A stretch of 64,000 nt of DNA from the human T2T-CHM13v2.0 reference genome, Homo sapiens (GCF_009914755.1 NC_060929.1); one strand, 5' to 3'; counted from the first letter of the stretch, positions 57,000 through 59,702 are shown. A program made the numbers and translations. Notes: a model not told the origin generated them from the sequence alone.

Positions 57000-58506
57000 T
57001 GTAGGGGAAAAAAAAGGGGGGATCAGACTGTTACTGTGTTGTAACCGAGCGAGTTATACAGAAACGCCACACTCTGAGACGAATTGAGGAGTCCTTTATT
57101 AGCCAGCGACCGAGAGACGGCTAGTGCTCAAAATTCTCTCGGCCCTGAAGAAGGGGCTAGATTTTGTTTTATACTTTGGTTTAGAGAGGGGAGGGGGAGC
57201 CTAGCTGTAGCAGTCTTACAGAAGTAAAACAGGCAAAAGAAGTTAAAAAGACAAATGGTTACAGGAAAGCAAACAGTTCCAGGTGCAGGGGCTTTAAATC
57301 CATCACAAGGTGATAGACGCTGGGCTTTGGGTGCTATCAACCAGACAAAAACACAGGGGCTTAGGGTAATATCAACTGGACAAATTCCTGGGAACTGCGG
57401 ACATAGCTTGCCACAGCATGTTATCAGTTAATTGCATTCTTTGATGTGCTGGGAGTCAGCTTGCACAAGTTAATTCCTTGAGGAAGGGGGTGGGTAAGGA
57501 GCCCTTGATGTCTTGCAAATGAAGGAGCCAAATGGAGTCCGTTCAGGTTTCTCAGCTAAGAGAGAGTCAATCAGGTTAATACAAGTTAGGGTATCACAAG
57601 TGTGTCTATTTAGAAAAGGAAGACTTAAGAAACTCCATTTTGATCTGTACCCTGAACAATGGTTTTGCCTTGAGATGCTGTTAATCTGTAACTTTTCTCC
57701 AGCCTTGTGCTCACAGAAACATGTGTTGTATGGAATTAAGGTTTAAGGGATCTAGGGCTGTGCAGGATGTGCCTTGTTAACAATATGTTTACAGGCAGTA
57801 TGCTTGGTAAAAGTCATCGCCATTCTCCATTCTCGATTAACCAGGGGCACGATGCACTGCGGAAAGCCGCAGGGACCTCTGCCCAGGAAAACCGGGTATT
57901 GTCCAAAGTTCCTCCCCACTGAGACAGCCTGAGATATGTCCTCATGGGATGGGAAAGACCTGACCGTCCCCCAGCCCGACACCCGTGAAGGGTCTGTGCT
58001 GAGGAGAATTAGTAAAAGAGGAAGGCCTCTGTCTCATACCGAACGGAATGTCTCGGTATAAAACCCGATTGTAGAAAACCACACTGGCAGGAGGCGAGAT
58101 ATGCTGGCGGCAATTATTCTTTATTCTGTTATTCTTTACTACACTGAGATGTTTGGGTGGAGAGAAGCATAAATCTGGCCTACGTGCACATCCAGGCATA
58201 GTACCTTCCCTTGAACTTATTTGTGACACACATTCCTTTGCTCACGTTTTCTTGCTGACCTTCTCCCCACTATCACCCTGTTCTCCTGCCGCTTCCTCTT
58301 GCTGAGATAGTGAAAATAGTAATCAATAAATACTGAGGGAACTCAGAGACCGGTGCTGGTGCAGGTCCTCCGTATGCTGAGCGCCAGTCTGCTGGGCCCA
58401 CTGTTCTTTCTCTATACTTTGTCTCTGTGTCTTACTTCTTTTCTCAGTCTCTCGTCCCACCTGACGAGAAATACCCACAGGTGTGGAGGGGCAAACCACC
58501 CCTTCA
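57000..58506 (+). mobile_element. HERV-K(HML-2) solo LTR (LTR5A/B-like), split by a nested LTR
   Basis: tgtagggg...gatcagactgttactg | tgtctat...gcggaaagccgcagggacctctgcc...cccgacacccgt...TATAAAA 58057...AATAAA 58325...caggtgtggaggggc..caccccttca; flanks tatga/tgtga (5-bp TSD, 1 mismatch). Confidence 0.93.
57037..57598 (-). mobile_element. LTR6-like (HERV-T/S71, ERV1 class) solo LTR nested in the LTR5
   Basis: Minus strand TGTGATACCCTAAC...TATAAAA (57167-57173)...AATAAA (57095-57100)...CTCGGTTACAACA; 4-bp TSD actg/agtg. Confidence 0.82.
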
Positions 58507-58517
58507 TGTGATGTTTA

Positions 58518-58822
58518 GGCCGGGTGCAATAGCCCGCGCCTGTAATCCCAGCACTTTGGGAGGCCGAGGTAGGAGGTTCACTTGAACCCAGGAGTTCAAG
58601 ACCAGCCTGGGCAACATAATGAGACCTCATTTCTAAAAAATAAATAAATAAATAAAAATTGTTTTAATTAGCTGGGCATGGTGGTGCACACCTGTAGTCA
58701 CAGGTGCTCGAGAGGCTGAGGTGGGAGAATCAGTTCAGCCCAGGAGTTCAAGGCTGCAGTGAGCTGTGATCGCACCACTGCACTCCAGCCTGGACAATAA
58801 AGTGAGACCGTGTCTCAAAAAT
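58518..58822 (+). mobile_element. AluJ
   Basis: Alu dimer just after the LTR5. Confidence 0.9.
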
Positions 58823-59348
58823 AGTATGATTTTTTTAATAGCTGCATAATAGTCTCCCCTATGGATATTTTTATTGTTTACTTAATGCTTGCCCTATTTG
58901 GGGCCATTGAAGTTGTTTAATTCTTTTTCCAATATAAATAATTTTATTCTGGCCATGTTTTTATTGAAATCTCTAACCCTATAATCTCTTTTTTTCCTTA
59001 GAATAGGTTTCCAGGATTGGGATATTGGAACAAAAGGTTAAATATTCTTAAAGTTCCTGATAGATGTTGTTGAATTGTTTCCAGAAAGCTTCAACAAATT
59101 CATCCCCTCTAGCCATAGTGCCTGTTTCAAGAAATGATCAGCATTGTCCATTATCTTCTTTTATTTTTTCCCAATTTGGTAGGTAAAACTAGTATCATTT
59201 CTAGTCTGCATTCTGCTTGACTCTCGTGTGGCTGAACATTTTTTTCTGAGTGGCATAGCCATTCATGTTTCTTCTGTGACGGGTCTGGACACATCCTCAG
59301 TGCTCTCATTTTCAGGAGAGCAAGGATGGGGAACGAGGGGATATGCAT

Positions 59349-59702
59349 TGTATTAGTTTGTTTTCATGCTGCTGATAAAGACATACCAGAGACTGGGAAG
59401 AAAAAGAGGTTTAATTGGACTTACAGTTCCACATGGCTGGGGAGGCCTCAGAATCATGGCAGGAGGTGAAAGGCACTTCTTACATGGCAGCAGCAAGAGA
59501 AAAAGAGGGAGAAGCAAAAGCAGAAAACCCTGATAAACCCATCAGCTCTCATGAGACTTATTCACTATCACAAGAATAGCACGAGAAAGACCGGCCCCCA
59601 TGATTCAATTACCTCACCCTGGCCCCCTCCCACAACATGTGGGAATTCTGGGAGATACAATTCAAGTTGAGATTTGGGTGGGGACACAGCCAAACTATAT
59701 CA
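59349..59702 (-). mobile_element. THE1 (C/D-like) solo LTR
   Basis: tgtattagt...cagccaaactatatca; exact 5-bp TSD tgcat. Confidence 0.93.
59454..59487 (-). CDS. SERINC5: Putative alternative terminal coding exon of SERINC5 (short isoforms), derived from a THE1 LTR
   Basis: Minus strand: polypyrimidine tract ttttctgcttttgcttctccctctttttctcttgctgc then tg|C CAT GTA AG|A AGT GCC TTT CAC CTC CTG CCA TGA = HVRSAFHLLP* or (K)SAFHLLP*. Matches my recollection of the ~423 and ~420 aa SERINC5 C-termini; upstream exons are outside the window. Confidence 0.7.

What the first reader, a model, noticed from the sequence alone, without database searches (positions are those of the whole stretch)
57060..59487. 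Candidate all-retroelement 3' end for the antiretroviral gene SERINC5
Seen (minus strand): acceptor, short coding tail and stop inside a THE1 LTR, then antisense Alu, antisense LTR5, and a sense LTR6-like LTR with its native AATAAA (57095-57100). Recalled, not verified: short SERINC5 isoforms end in ...SAFHLLP, and the most distal SERINC5 3' end lies ~28 kb from the THBS4 end, which falls here. Established: SERINC5 restricts HIV-1/MLV and the isoform with all 10 transmembrane helices is the stable, active one. Inference: LTR-donated splice and poly(A) signals divert transcripts into truncated isoforms, a retroelement-built attenuator of a restriction factor. Caveat: other minus-strand AATAAA occur at ~59160, 58960, 58943, 58870 and 58120.
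Basis: partly seen in the sequence, partly recalled or inferred. Interest (0 to 1): 0.8.

Follow-up and report, generated by a model that had tools for sequence, protein, structure and literature searches.

The report
Retroelement-built alternative 3' end of SERINC5
Two old retroviral LTRs downstream of the human antiviral gene SERINC5 supply the splice sites, stop codon and poly(A) signal of its already annotated, minor, truncated isoforms; this is a tidy example of a known kind of event, and nothing found here shows that it lowers SERINC5 activity.

Summary
The structure is not one long 3' exon. It is two exons, as RefSeq annotates them:
- a 54/63-nt exon (59425-59478/59487) inside a sense THE1-type solo LTR;
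- a 478-nt terminal exon (57078-57555) inside a sense LTR6/HERV-T-type solo LTR.

The Alu and the LTR5-like LTR lie in the intron between them.

The penultimate SERINC5 coding exon lies outside the window and ends in phase 2. Joining it to the THE1 exon gives an 8- or 11-residue tail ending SAFHLLP and totals of 420 or 423 aa. The normal last exon adds 49 residues (461 aa).

The acceptor AG, the donor GTAAGT, the stop, the second acceptor and the AATAAA are ancestral to their repeat families (22-27 of 29 sister copies each).

The stop lies 29 nt before the last junction, so it should escape NMD.

The 59487 boundary follows TG, not AG, in this assembly. It is either a TG-AG tandem acceptor or a polymorphism.

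The "attenuator" reading lacks support. These exons lie 30 kb beyond the constitutive terminal exon, and reviews report the full-length mRNA at more than 10-fold the other isoforms.

I found no paper noting the repeat origin. Verdict: real, annotated, a new member of a known kind, of modest interest.

The parts
59349..59702 (-). THE1-type (MaLR) solo LTR, 354 bp, sense to SERINC5, flanked by a perfect 5-bp target duplication ATGCA (59703-59707 and 59344-59348)
   Evidence: at least 7234 first-look candidates in the same genome; 39 other copies scored at 91-93% identity, mostly covering query 19-372 (= 59702-59349). Termini and duplication read. The family name is recalled, not assigned by a repeat library.
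59425..59478 (-). 54-nt penultimate exon from the AG acceptor (AG at 59479-59480). Its first base completes a split Lys codon, followed by SAFHLLP and a stop.
   Evidence: Hub RefSeq exon. Sequence; junction translation (8-residue tail, 420 aa). AG kept in 27 of 29 sister LTRs.
59425..59487 (-). 63-nt form of the same exon, starting 9 nt upstream. It is preceded by TG (59488-59489), not AG. Its first base completes an Asn codon, followed by HVRSAFHLLP and a stop.
   Evidence: Hub RefSeq exon. (11-residue tail, 423 aa). The dinucleotide is TG in 17, CG in 5, CA in 5, TA in 2 and AG in 0 of 29 sister LTRs. The layout CTG,CCATGTAAG| matches the TG-AG tandem acceptors of PMC2374985.
59454..59456 (-). 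Stop codon TGA of the short isoforms, 29 nt upstream of the last exon-exon junction
   Evidence: TGA kept in 27 of 29 sister LTRs.
59419..59424 (-). 5' splice site GTAAGT inside the THE1-type LTR
   Evidence: GTAAGT kept in 22 of 29 sister LTRs. The exon end at 59425 is in the hub table.
57556..59424 (-). Last intron (1869 nt). It holds the THE1 LTR tail, about 500 nt of unassigned unique DNA (58852-59348), an antisense Alu, an antisense LTR5-like LTR and the first 43 nt of the terminal LTR. It also holds five unused minus-strand AATAAA sites.
   Evidence: hub exon table.
58519..58851 (+). Alu element, antisense to SERINC5, intronic
   Evidence: two Metazoa_SRP-like matches on the + strand (58519-58635 and 58671-58818; 56 and 53 bits, below the gathering score of 70). 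NCBI masks 58532-58851 (hub).
57599..58506 (+). Larger part of an LTR5-like LTR, antisense to SERINC5, intronic
   Evidence: at least 1489 first-look candidates; copies of about 950-970 bp at 79-88% identity, mostly covering query 3-908. The name rests on recalled similarity to the HERV-K LTR and was not tested against a repeat library.
57000..57036 (+). First 37 nt of the same LTR5-like LTR, cut off by the later insertion of the terminal LTR
   Evidence: in two uninterrupted copies (L088, L089) the sequences matching 57000-57036 and 57600 onward are contiguous.
57037..57598 (-). LTR6/HERV-T(S71)-type solo LTR, 562 bp (TGTGATACC...GGTTACAACA), sense to SERINC5, nested in the LTR5-like LTR. Its 4-bp target duplication is CACT/CAGT, with one mismatch.
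   Evidence: at least 701 first-look candidates; 39 other copies at 85-90% identity; termini; perfect 4-bp duplications in 13 of 29 copies by my reading. Proviral 5' copies carry a primer-binding site complementary to tRNA-Thr(TGT). Repbase pairs HERVS71 with LTR6A/B.
57556..57557 (-). AG of the 3' splice site of the terminal exon (ctctctcttag|CTGAG)
   Evidence: AG kept in 26 of 29 sister LTRs.
57078..57555 (-). Terminal exon (478 nt, all 3' UTR), lying entirely inside the LTR6-type LTR
   Evidence: Hub RefSeq exon; the exon alone has at least 426 first-look candidates in the genome.
57095..57100 (-). AATAAA poly(A) signal native to the LTR. The annotated RNA end (57078) lies 17 nt after it, and a GU-rich stretch follows at 57072-57058.
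   Evidence: AATAAA exact in 26 of 29 sister LTRs; 2 more read AATAAA beside a 1-nt indel; 1 reads GATAAA.
60367..60504 (-). Optional 138-nt exon made from an antisense Alu (tttgag|ATGGAG ... ACCATG|gtgagc), upstream of the THE1 exon
   Evidence: Hub RefSeq exon.. Alu on the + strand at 60226-60509 (39.5 and 31.5 bits, below gathering).
61991..62176 (-). Optional 186-nt exon of unique sequence. Joined to the penultimate coding exon it gives a 5-residue tail and a stop 170 nt before its donor.
   Evidence: Hub RefSeq exon.. Unique in the genome.

Best explanation
This is the distal alternative-last-exon unit of human SERINC5. It is already in RefSeq, and its processing signals all come from two sense-oriented solo LTRs.

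- **Route.** A minority of transcripts skip the constitutive terminal exon, which lies 30 kb upstream and outside the window, together with its poly(A) site. In these, the donor of the penultimate coding exon splices to an acceptor in a THE1-type LTR.
- **Coding end.** The LTR contributes one base of a split codon, 7 or 10 further codons and a TGA. Its own GTAAGT donor then splices to an acceptor in an LTR6/HERV-T-type LTR. That LTR's native AATAAA ends the RNA at 57078.
- **Product.** The proteins (420 and 423 aa by my count) lack the last 49 residues. Reviews say this loss removes the tenth transmembrane helix, which is needed for HIV-1 restriction.
- **RNA stability.** The stop is 29 nt from the last junction, so the mRNA should escape NMD.

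Shown: the sequence anatomy, the reading-frame fit and the family-ancestral origin of the signals.

Inferred: these isoforms are a low-level by-product of ready-made LTR signals catching read-through transcripts, not a selected regulator.
For: - **Splice sites, stop and hexamer.** They sit exactly at the hub's RefSeq exon borders.
- **Frame.** The penultimate exon was located by a Pfam Serinc scan of the same genome. It ends ...TNWF plus 2 bases, followed by GTGAGT.
- **Numbering.** It is anchored by the ICL4 peptide at residues 370-383 of NP_001167543, which puts F412 as the last whole codon.
- **Totals.** The normal last exon adds 49 residues, giving 461, the published length. The THE1 exon gives 420 or 423 aa. 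A 423-aa human SERINC5 is quoted in print.
- **Signals are family-ancestral.**
- **LTR identities.** Copy numbers, TG..CA termini, 5-bp and 4-bp target duplications, and a tRNA-Thr primer-binding site in proviral relatives.
- **Insertion order.** The terminal LTR is nested in the LTR5-like LTR.
- **Abundance.** Full-length mRNA is more than 10-fold the others. The majority mRNA encodes the longest form.
- **Geometry.** 30,203 nt separate the constitutive last-exon acceptor from 59478.
Against: - No RNA data were available. Use of these exons rests on the hub's RefSeq table and on isoforms described in reviews.
- I could not read the primary isoform paper, so I cannot say which published isoform (004, 005, 008a or 008b) matches which exon path.
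- The 59487 boundary lacks an AG in this assembly. That form needs either an unusual TG acceptor or another allele.
- "By-product" is an inference from low abundance and geometry. A tissue or state with high usage would contradict it.
- About 500 nt of the intron is not shown to be a repeat.
Confidence: 0.8

Rival explanations
1. One reading: the LTR-built exons are a functionally meaningful attenuator. They divert enough SERINC5 pre-mRNA into unstable, inactive truncated isoforms to lower restriction activity, constitutively or in particular cell states.
For: - The truncated products lack the C-terminal 49 residues. Reviews call the extra transmembrane domain of the long form essential for restriction.
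- The stop is placed to escape NMD, so the RNA could accumulate.
- Comparable retroelement-made terminal exons do regulate IFNAR2, IL13RA1, IL18R1 and PD-L1.
Against: - Full-length mRNA is reported at more than 10-fold the other isoforms, which caps any diversion at a small fraction.
- The exons lie 30 kb beyond the constitutive terminal exon and its poly(A) site. They do not compete on equal terms.
- All the signals are ancestral features of the LTR families, so no locus-specific tuning needs to be invoked.
- No paper was found linking SERINC5 to exonization or to these repeats.
Confidence: 0.08
2. The short proteins have a function of their own, for example as a dominant-negative or decoy partner of full-length SERINC5, or as an intracellular lipid-related form. 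The LTR exons would then have been co-opted for that.
For: - NMD-exempt geometry.
- Two in-frame acceptor choices are kept in the annotation (hub).
- One antibody paper raises staining of alternatively spliced isoforms inside cells as a possibility.
- Decoy isoforms are a common outcome of retroelement exonization.
Against: - The tail is 8-11 residues translated from an LTR, with no sign of selection. The same codons and stop occur in 27 of 29 unrelated copies.
- The reviews seen describe only the long form as active.
Confidence: 0.05
3. The 63-nt form (59487) is not a real splice product of this haplotype. Either other human haplotypes carry AG at 59489-59488 and the reference transcript was simply projected onto T2T, or the boundary is an annotation or alignment artefact.
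For: - The dinucleotide is TG here and is never AG in 29 sister LTRs. A single base change would create AG.
- PMC2374985 reports that many RefSeq TG acceptors failed checks because of SNPs that mask an AG, missing transcript evidence or misleading alignments. Only 9 of 39 survived.
Against: - The layout (YTG, 9 nt, then AG) is the one validated for genuine TG-AG tandem acceptors. Six Table 1 cases sit at 9 nt.
- The 63-nt form gives exactly the 423 aa quoted for human SERINC5.
Confidence: 0.4

Closest known systems
SERINC5 short isoforms 004, 005, 008a and 008b (Zhang et al. 2017, J Virol; seen only as cited in reviews)
   Same: They are alternatively spliced, differ only at the C-terminal end, lack the tenth transmembrane domain, and are far less abundant than isoform 001 (461 aa). 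The exons studied here are almost certainly the genomic source of at least two of them.
   Different: The reviews I read say nothing about the exons being LTR- or Alu-derived. I could not map the published isoform names to exon paths because the primary paper is not held.
IFNAR2-S (Alu-derived alternative terminal exon) and IL13RA1-LOR1a (LTR/L1-derived terminal exon), as reviewed in PMC13709765 (passages)
   Same: A primate-specific retroelement downstream of or inside an immune gene supplies a splice site and a premature stop, so the protein loses its C-terminal functional part.
   Different: IFNAR2-S is the predominant isoform in most tissues, and its decoy function was shown by knock-out and by deleting the element. 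The SERINC5 forms are minor and have no shown function. Here two different LTRs share the work, one giving acceptor, stop and donor and the other giving acceptor and poly(A) signal. The exons also lie beyond the normal gene end, not in an intron.
sPD-L1 (LINE-2A poly(A) signal in CD274) and IL18R1-Short (L2 poly(A) signal)
   Same: A retroelement's poly(A) signal ends a transcript that encodes a truncated immune protein.
   Different: In those cases the signal is intronic and pre-empts the downstream exons. In SERINC5 the LTR signal is distal to the constitutive 3' end.
TG-AG tandem 3' splice sites (Szafranski et al. 2007, PMC2374985; passages and Table 1)
   Same: A YTG lies 9 nt upstream of a canonical AG and is annotated as an alternative in-frame acceptor. 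The published class requires an AG within 28 nt, and six of its Table 1 cases sit at 9 nt.
   Different: SERINC5 is not in that paper's main text or Table 1. Here the tandem sits inside a THE1-type LTR, and its use is not verified by reads. A polymorphic AG is not excluded.

Membership tests
Retroelement-derived alternative terminal exon that truncates a host protein (exonization plus TE poly(A) signal) | Splice acceptor and/or donor lie inside an annotated repeat copy | tested here: met
   The 59479-80 acceptor and the 59419-24 donor lie inside the THE1-type LTR 59349-59702. The 57556-57 acceptor lies inside the LTR 57037-57598.
Retroelement-derived alternative terminal exon that truncates a host protein (exonization plus TE poly(A) signal) | An in-frame stop inside the repeat-derived exon, with the frame fitting the upstream host exon | tested here: met
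   The phase-2 end of the penultimate exon plus the THE1 exon gives 7 or 10 codons and then TGA at 59456-59454.
Retroelement-derived alternative terminal exon that truncates a host protein (exonization plus TE poly(A) signal) | Poly(A) signal supplied by the repeat | tested here: met
   AATAAA at 57100-57095 lies inside the LTR and is kept in 26 (28 allowing a 1-nt indel) of 29 sister copies. The annotated end is 17 nt downstream.
Retroelement-derived alternative terminal exon that truncates a host protein (exonization plus TE poly(A) signal) | Transcript evidence for the junctions and the 3' end | not testable with these tools
   Only the hub's RefSeq exon table and review statements on five isoforms. 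No RNA reads or transcript sequences were available.
Retroelement-derived alternative terminal exon that truncates a host protein (exonization plus TE poly(A) signal) | A demonstrated regulatory or decoy effect of the truncated isoform | not testable with these tools
   No experiment was possible. Reviews report low abundance.
THE1 (ERVL-MaLR) LTR | About 350-bp LTR with TG...CA termini, a 5-bp target duplication and thousands of dispersed copies | tested here: met
   354 bp, TGATATAG...CTAATACA, ATGCA duplication. At least 7234 first-look candidates; nearest copies at 91-93%.
THE1 (ERVL-MaLR) LTR | Match to the Repbase/Dfam THE1 consensus and subfamily assignment | not testable with these tools
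   No repeat library was on hand. The name rests on recalled similarity.
LTR6A/B of HERV-S71 (HERV-T) | Class I ERV LTR with TG...CA termini and a 4-bp target duplication | tested here: met
   TGTGATACC...GGTTACAACA. Perfect 4-bp duplications in 13 of 29 sister copies by my reading; CACT/CAGT in the window.
LTR6A/B of HERV-S71 (HERV-T) | Proviral copies use a tRNA-Thr primer-binding site | tested here: met
   Four proviral 5' LTR copies (two of them an identical duplicated pair) are followed by TT and an 18-nt site. Its 15-nt core matches 13 genomic places. Of the 9 scanned, 3 are the 3' ends of tRNA-Thr(TGT) genes. The other 4 places are the same sites as the ERV loci, which one search scanned without finding a tRNA.
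LTR6A/B of HERV-S71 (HERV-T) | Match to the Repbase LTR6A/LTR6B consensus | not testable with these tools
   No repeat library. Repbase pairs HERVS71 with LTR6A/B. That HERV-S71 equals HERV-T is recalled.
LTR5 of HERV-K (HML-2) | About 970-bp LTR related to HERV-K LTRs, flanking HML-2 proviruses | tested here: inconclusive
   Copies are about 950-970 bp at 79-88% identity, and one same-strand pair lies 9 kb apart. The similarity to LTR5 is recalled.
TG-AG tandem 3' splice site (PMC2374985) | TG used only as an alternative to a canonical AG no more than 28 nt away | tested here: met
   TG at 59489-59488 and AG at 59480-59479, 9 nt apart. Both boundaries are annotated (hub).
TG-AG tandem 3' splice site (PMC2374985) | Independent transcript support, and exclusion of a SNP that creates AG | not testable with these tools
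   No reads, no GRCh38 sequence and no variant data.
NMD-exempt premature stop (50-55-nt rule) | Stop codon less than about 50-55 nt upstream of the last exon-exon junction | tested here: met
   29 nt lie between the TGA and the 59425|57555 junction. The rule itself is established knowledge.

The most novel reading that the evidence does not exclude
The LTR-built distal exons form a regulated sink. In some cell state, such as weakened use of the constitutive SERINC5 poly(A) site or skipping of its last exon, a substantial share of transcripts would be routed to the THE1/LTR6 unit. That would yield stable, NMD-exempt mRNAs for inactive protein lacking the tenth transmembrane helix, so endogenous retroviral LTRs would tune down an antiretroviral factor in catarrhine primates. 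A further twist would be allele- or context-dependent choice between a TG and an AG acceptor inside the THE1 LTR.
Probability: 0.07. Interest if true: 0.7.

Novelty: new member of a known kind. Interest (0 to 1): 0.3.

Why it matters
**Where the short isoforms come from.** The C-termini of the short SERINC5 isoforms are translated LTR sequence, not an evolved protein segment. These isoforms still circulate in databases and reagents, and one paper speaks of "the 423 aa of human SERINC5" with 10 transmembrane domains. The exon encoding the last 49 residues is simply absent from them. This helps in choosing cDNAs, antibodies and isoform-aware quantification.

**A worked example.** Two unrelated LTRs cooperate here. 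One gives acceptor, stop and donor. The other gives acceptor and poly(A) signal. Together they extend a gene's annotated end by about 30 kb.

**A testable oddity.** There is a possible TG-AG tandem acceptor carried by a repeat.

**If the attenuator reading were true.** It would be a striking case of retroviral relics weakening antiretroviral defence. The present evidence points to a low-level by-product.

Tried and rejected
- **L1 origin of 58852-59348.** I suspected by eye an old L1 ORF2 remnant, with a YYAAIK-like motif in one frame. The stretch matches only itself in the genome, and 5 translated frames gave no Pfam family at E up to 1. The label is dropped and the stretch stays unassigned.
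- **Human SERINC5 in the PDB, for independent residue numbering.** Only Drosophila TMS1d and human SERINC3 matched the penultimate exon. Nothing matched the last-exon peptide. I took the numbering from a peptide table in PMC7531522 instead.
- **First tRNA scan.** The loci holding the full 18-nt primer-binding site had no tRNA, because genomic tRNA genes lack CCA. The 15-nt core then found tRNA-Thr genes.
- **Literature searches for a prior link:**
  - "SAFHLLP": 0 papers.
  - SERINC5 + THE1: 1 paper, an abstract book.
  - SERINC5 + exonization: 0.
  - Six-term searches with min_terms 3 and 2: none of the 20 and 25 listed papers held SERINC5.
  - SERINC5 + sQTL: 1 irrelevant paper.
  - SERINC5 + alternative polyadenylation: 11 papers. 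I opened only the top one, which cites SERINC5 only in its reference list.
- **Sources not available:**
  - The primary isoform paper PMC5411613 is not held.
It lists RefSeq TG acceptors and may bear on the 59487 site.
Two 101-nt pieces were still obtained.
- **Not used.** No claim here needs one.
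Full report
**What is in the sequence**

I read 59800-56900 and 64000-59800 on the minus strand, the SERINC5 strand. The hub's RefSeq exons all have proper signals, with one exception.

| Exon | Acceptor | Donor or end |
|---|---|---|
| 62176-61991 | cccag\| | \|gtgcct |
| 60504-60367 | tttgag\| | \|gtgagc |
| 59478-59425 | gtaag\| | \|gtaagt |
| 57555-57078 (terminal) | ctctctcttag\| | AATAAA at 57100-57095; RNA end 17 nt after it; GU-rich run at 57072-57058 |

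These contexts were printed by script. The exception is the longer form 59487-59425. It is preceded by TG, not AG.

The finding's span is therefore two exons and an intron, not one 2.4-kb 3' exon. AATAAA is frequent in the window overall: 105 sites against 43.2 expected, and 0 of 100 shuffles reached 105. The hexamer matters only because of where it sits.

**Reading frame**

A scan of the window's own genome with the Pfam Serinc model placed the last two Serinc-homologous exons of SERINC5 at chr5:80629888-80630100 and 80627549-80627683, minus strand. Both lie outside the window. I fetched that region.

- The penultimate coding exon ends ...TNWF plus two bases (AA), followed by GTGAGT.
- A published peptide table places QPGKEGPRVIYDEK at residues 370-383 of the 461-aa isoform. 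That makes the F the 412th residue.
- The constitutive last exon starts at chr5:80627681, window-equivalent 89681. It completes an Asn codon and adds 49 residues in all, giving 461. This is the published length.

The same donor joined to other exons gives these products:

| Joined to | Split codon | Tail | Total |
|---|---|---|---|
| 59478 | Lys | SAFHLLP, then TGA at 59456-59454 (8 residues) | 420 aa |
| 59487 | Asn | HVRSAFHLLP, then stop (11 residues) | 423 aa |
| 62176 | Lys | 5 residues; stop 170 nt before that exon's donor | 417 aa |

- A 423-aa human SERINC5 is quoted in print.
- The THE1-exon stop is 29 nt from the last junction. Under the 50-55-nt rule (established knowledge) such mRNAs escape NMD.
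- Transcripts carrying the 62176 exon would be predicted NMD targets if spliced further downstream.

**The repeats**

*THE1-type LTR (59702-59349).* It is 354 bp with TG...CA ends and a perfect ATGCA target duplication, so it is a solo LTR. The genome holds at least 7234 first-look candidates. The 39 other scored copies are 91-93% identical.

*Terminal LTR (57598-57037).* It is 562 bp and has at least 701 first-look candidates. The 39 other scored copies are 85-90% identical.
- Sister copies start TGTGATACC and end GGTTACAACA. They show perfect 4-bp target duplications in 13 of 29 by my reading. The window copy has CACT/CAGT.
- Four sister copies are 5' LTRs of proviruses, two of them an identical duplicated pair. 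They are followed by TT and an 18-nt primer-binding site.
- The 15-nt core of that site occurs at 13 places in the genome.
- Of the 9 places scanned, 3 are the exact 3' ends of tRNA-Thr(TGT) genes. The other 4 are ERV sites already scanned without a tRNA.
- A Thr primer and a 4-bp duplication fit HERV-T/HERV-S71. Repbase names its LTRs LTR6A/B. That S71 equals HERV-T is recalled.

*LTR5-like LTR.* It lies on the + strand and has at least 1489 first-look candidates, with copies of about 950-970 bp at 79-88% identity. It is split by the terminal LTR. Two intact copies show the sequences matching 57000-57036 and 57600 onward as contiguous. The LTR6-type element therefore inserted later. I could not test its HERV-K group, so that name rests on recall.

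*Alus.* The Alus at 58519-58818 and 60226-60509 are on the + strand. Their SRP-like matches have E 1e-12 to 2e-5, and all fall below the gathering score.

*Unassigned stretch.* 58852-59348 matches nothing else in the genome and no Pfam family. My L1 guess is unsupported.

**Are the signals LTR-donated?**

Yes. I compared each LTR with its 29 best-scoring sister copies by pairwise BLAST. These are the nearest relatives, not a random sample.

| Signal | Kept in sister copies |
|---|---|
| THE1: AG at 59480-59479 | 27 of 29 |
| THE1: GTAAGT donor | 22 of 29 |
| THE1: in-frame TGA | 27 of 29 |
| Terminal LTR: acceptor AG | 26 of 29 |
| Terminal LTR: AATAAA | 26 of 29 exact; 2 more with a 1-nt indel; 1 GATAAA |

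No locus-specific mutation is needed to explain usage. One small copy-specific change is visible. A T replaces the A that most sisters have in ...CTCATTTT..., which makes the pyrimidine tract before the acceptor uninterrupted. Whether this matters is untested.

**The TG boundary**

The dinucleotide before 59487 is TG here. In the sister copies it is TG in 17, CG in 5, CA in 5, TA in 2 and AG in 0 of 29.

Szafranski et al. 2007 (PMC2374985; passages and Table 1 read) showed the following:
- TG can serve as a 3' splice site only as an alternative to an AG within 28 nt.
- Six of their Table 1 cases sit at 9 nt with the layout YTG,N7AG|. That is exactly the layout here (CTG,CCATGTAAG|).
- Many RefSeq TG acceptors turned out to be SNP-masked AGs or artefacts. 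Only 9 of 39 survived their checks.

SERINC5 is not in their main text, and I could not open their supplement. So the 423-aa form needs one of three things: a genuine TG acceptor borne by a THE1 LTR, another allele, or an annotation correction. I cannot decide among them.

**Mechanism and meaning**

Shown: the anatomy, the frame and the origin of the signals.

Inferred:
- The constitutive last exon and its poly(A) site come first, and the THE1 acceptor lies 30,203 nt further on.
- Only transcripts that skip that exon and read through can reach the LTR unit.
- The ready-made LTR signals then process them into stable mRNAs for C-terminally truncated protein.

From the literature:
- Reviews state there are five isoforms differing at the C-terminus, and that 001 carries an additional transmembrane domain essential for restriction.
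- 001 mRNA is more than 10-fold the others.
- The majority mRNA encodes the longest form.

This fits a low-level by-product. It does not fit an attenuator, although no expression data could be examined here.

**Comparison and novelty**

The event belongs with retroelement-made terminal exons that truncate immune proteins: IFNAR2-S, IL13RA1-LOR1a, IL18R1-Short and sPD-L1. All are reviewed in PMC13709765 (outline and passages read). That review holds no mention of SERINC5 (occurrence count 0).

The SERINC5 case differs in three ways. It is minor. It lies distal to the gene's normal end. It is built from two LTRs.

The transcripts are annotated and the proteins have been studied. What I did not find in print is their repeat origin. 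The searched library omits most subscription journals, and repeat tracks in genome browsers make the overlap easy to see.

I rate it a new member of a known kind, with interest 0.3.

Noticed in passing
window 59479-59489 (minus strand): The annotated 63-nt exon form starts after TG, 9 nt upstream of the canonical AG. This is the layout of published TG-AG tandem acceptors, here carried by a THE1-type LTR. None of the 29 sister LTRs has AG there. A polymorphic AG in other haplotypes is the main alternative.
   Followed up: partly
window 60367-60504, inside about 60020-60690 (minus strand): This annotated SERINC5 exon is a classic antisense-Alu exon (poly-T tract, then tttgag|, and a ccatg|gtgagc donor). 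The Alu itself sits inside a second MaLR-type LTR, MST-like by eye (name recalled, not tested). Joined in frame, it would add 45 codons and then meet a stop at the junction with 59478.
   Followed up: partly
window 61991-62176 (minus strand): This annotated exon of unique sequence has a stop in all three frames by my own reading of the sequence. In the SERINC5 frame it stops after 5 residues, 170 nt before its donor. Transcripts that include it and splice on should be NMD targets.
   Followed up: partly
window 58737-58796 (minus strand): An Rfam mir-3135 match inside the intronic Alu scores 65.6 bits, below the gathering score of 80. It most likely reflects the Alu-derived nature of that miRNA family rather than a gene here.
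   Followed up: no
literature (PMC9042822, passage seen): The paper describes "the 423 aa of human SERINC5" as comprising 10 transmembrane domains. By the exon arithmetic here, the 423-aa form lacks the 49 residues encoded by the constitutive last exon. Isoform length and topology appear to be conflated.
   Followed up: partly
L013/L016, L026/L028, L033/L034 (own genome: chr1, chr10, chrY): Several LTR6-type copies occur as identical pairs with identical flanks. These are copies inside segmental or palindromic duplications, so the 29 sister copies are not all independent insertions.
   Followed up: no
window 58852-59348: About 500 nt between the THE1-type LTR and the Alu is unique in the genome and has no Pfam match. 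It carries four of the unused minus-strand AATAAA sites.
   Followed up: yes
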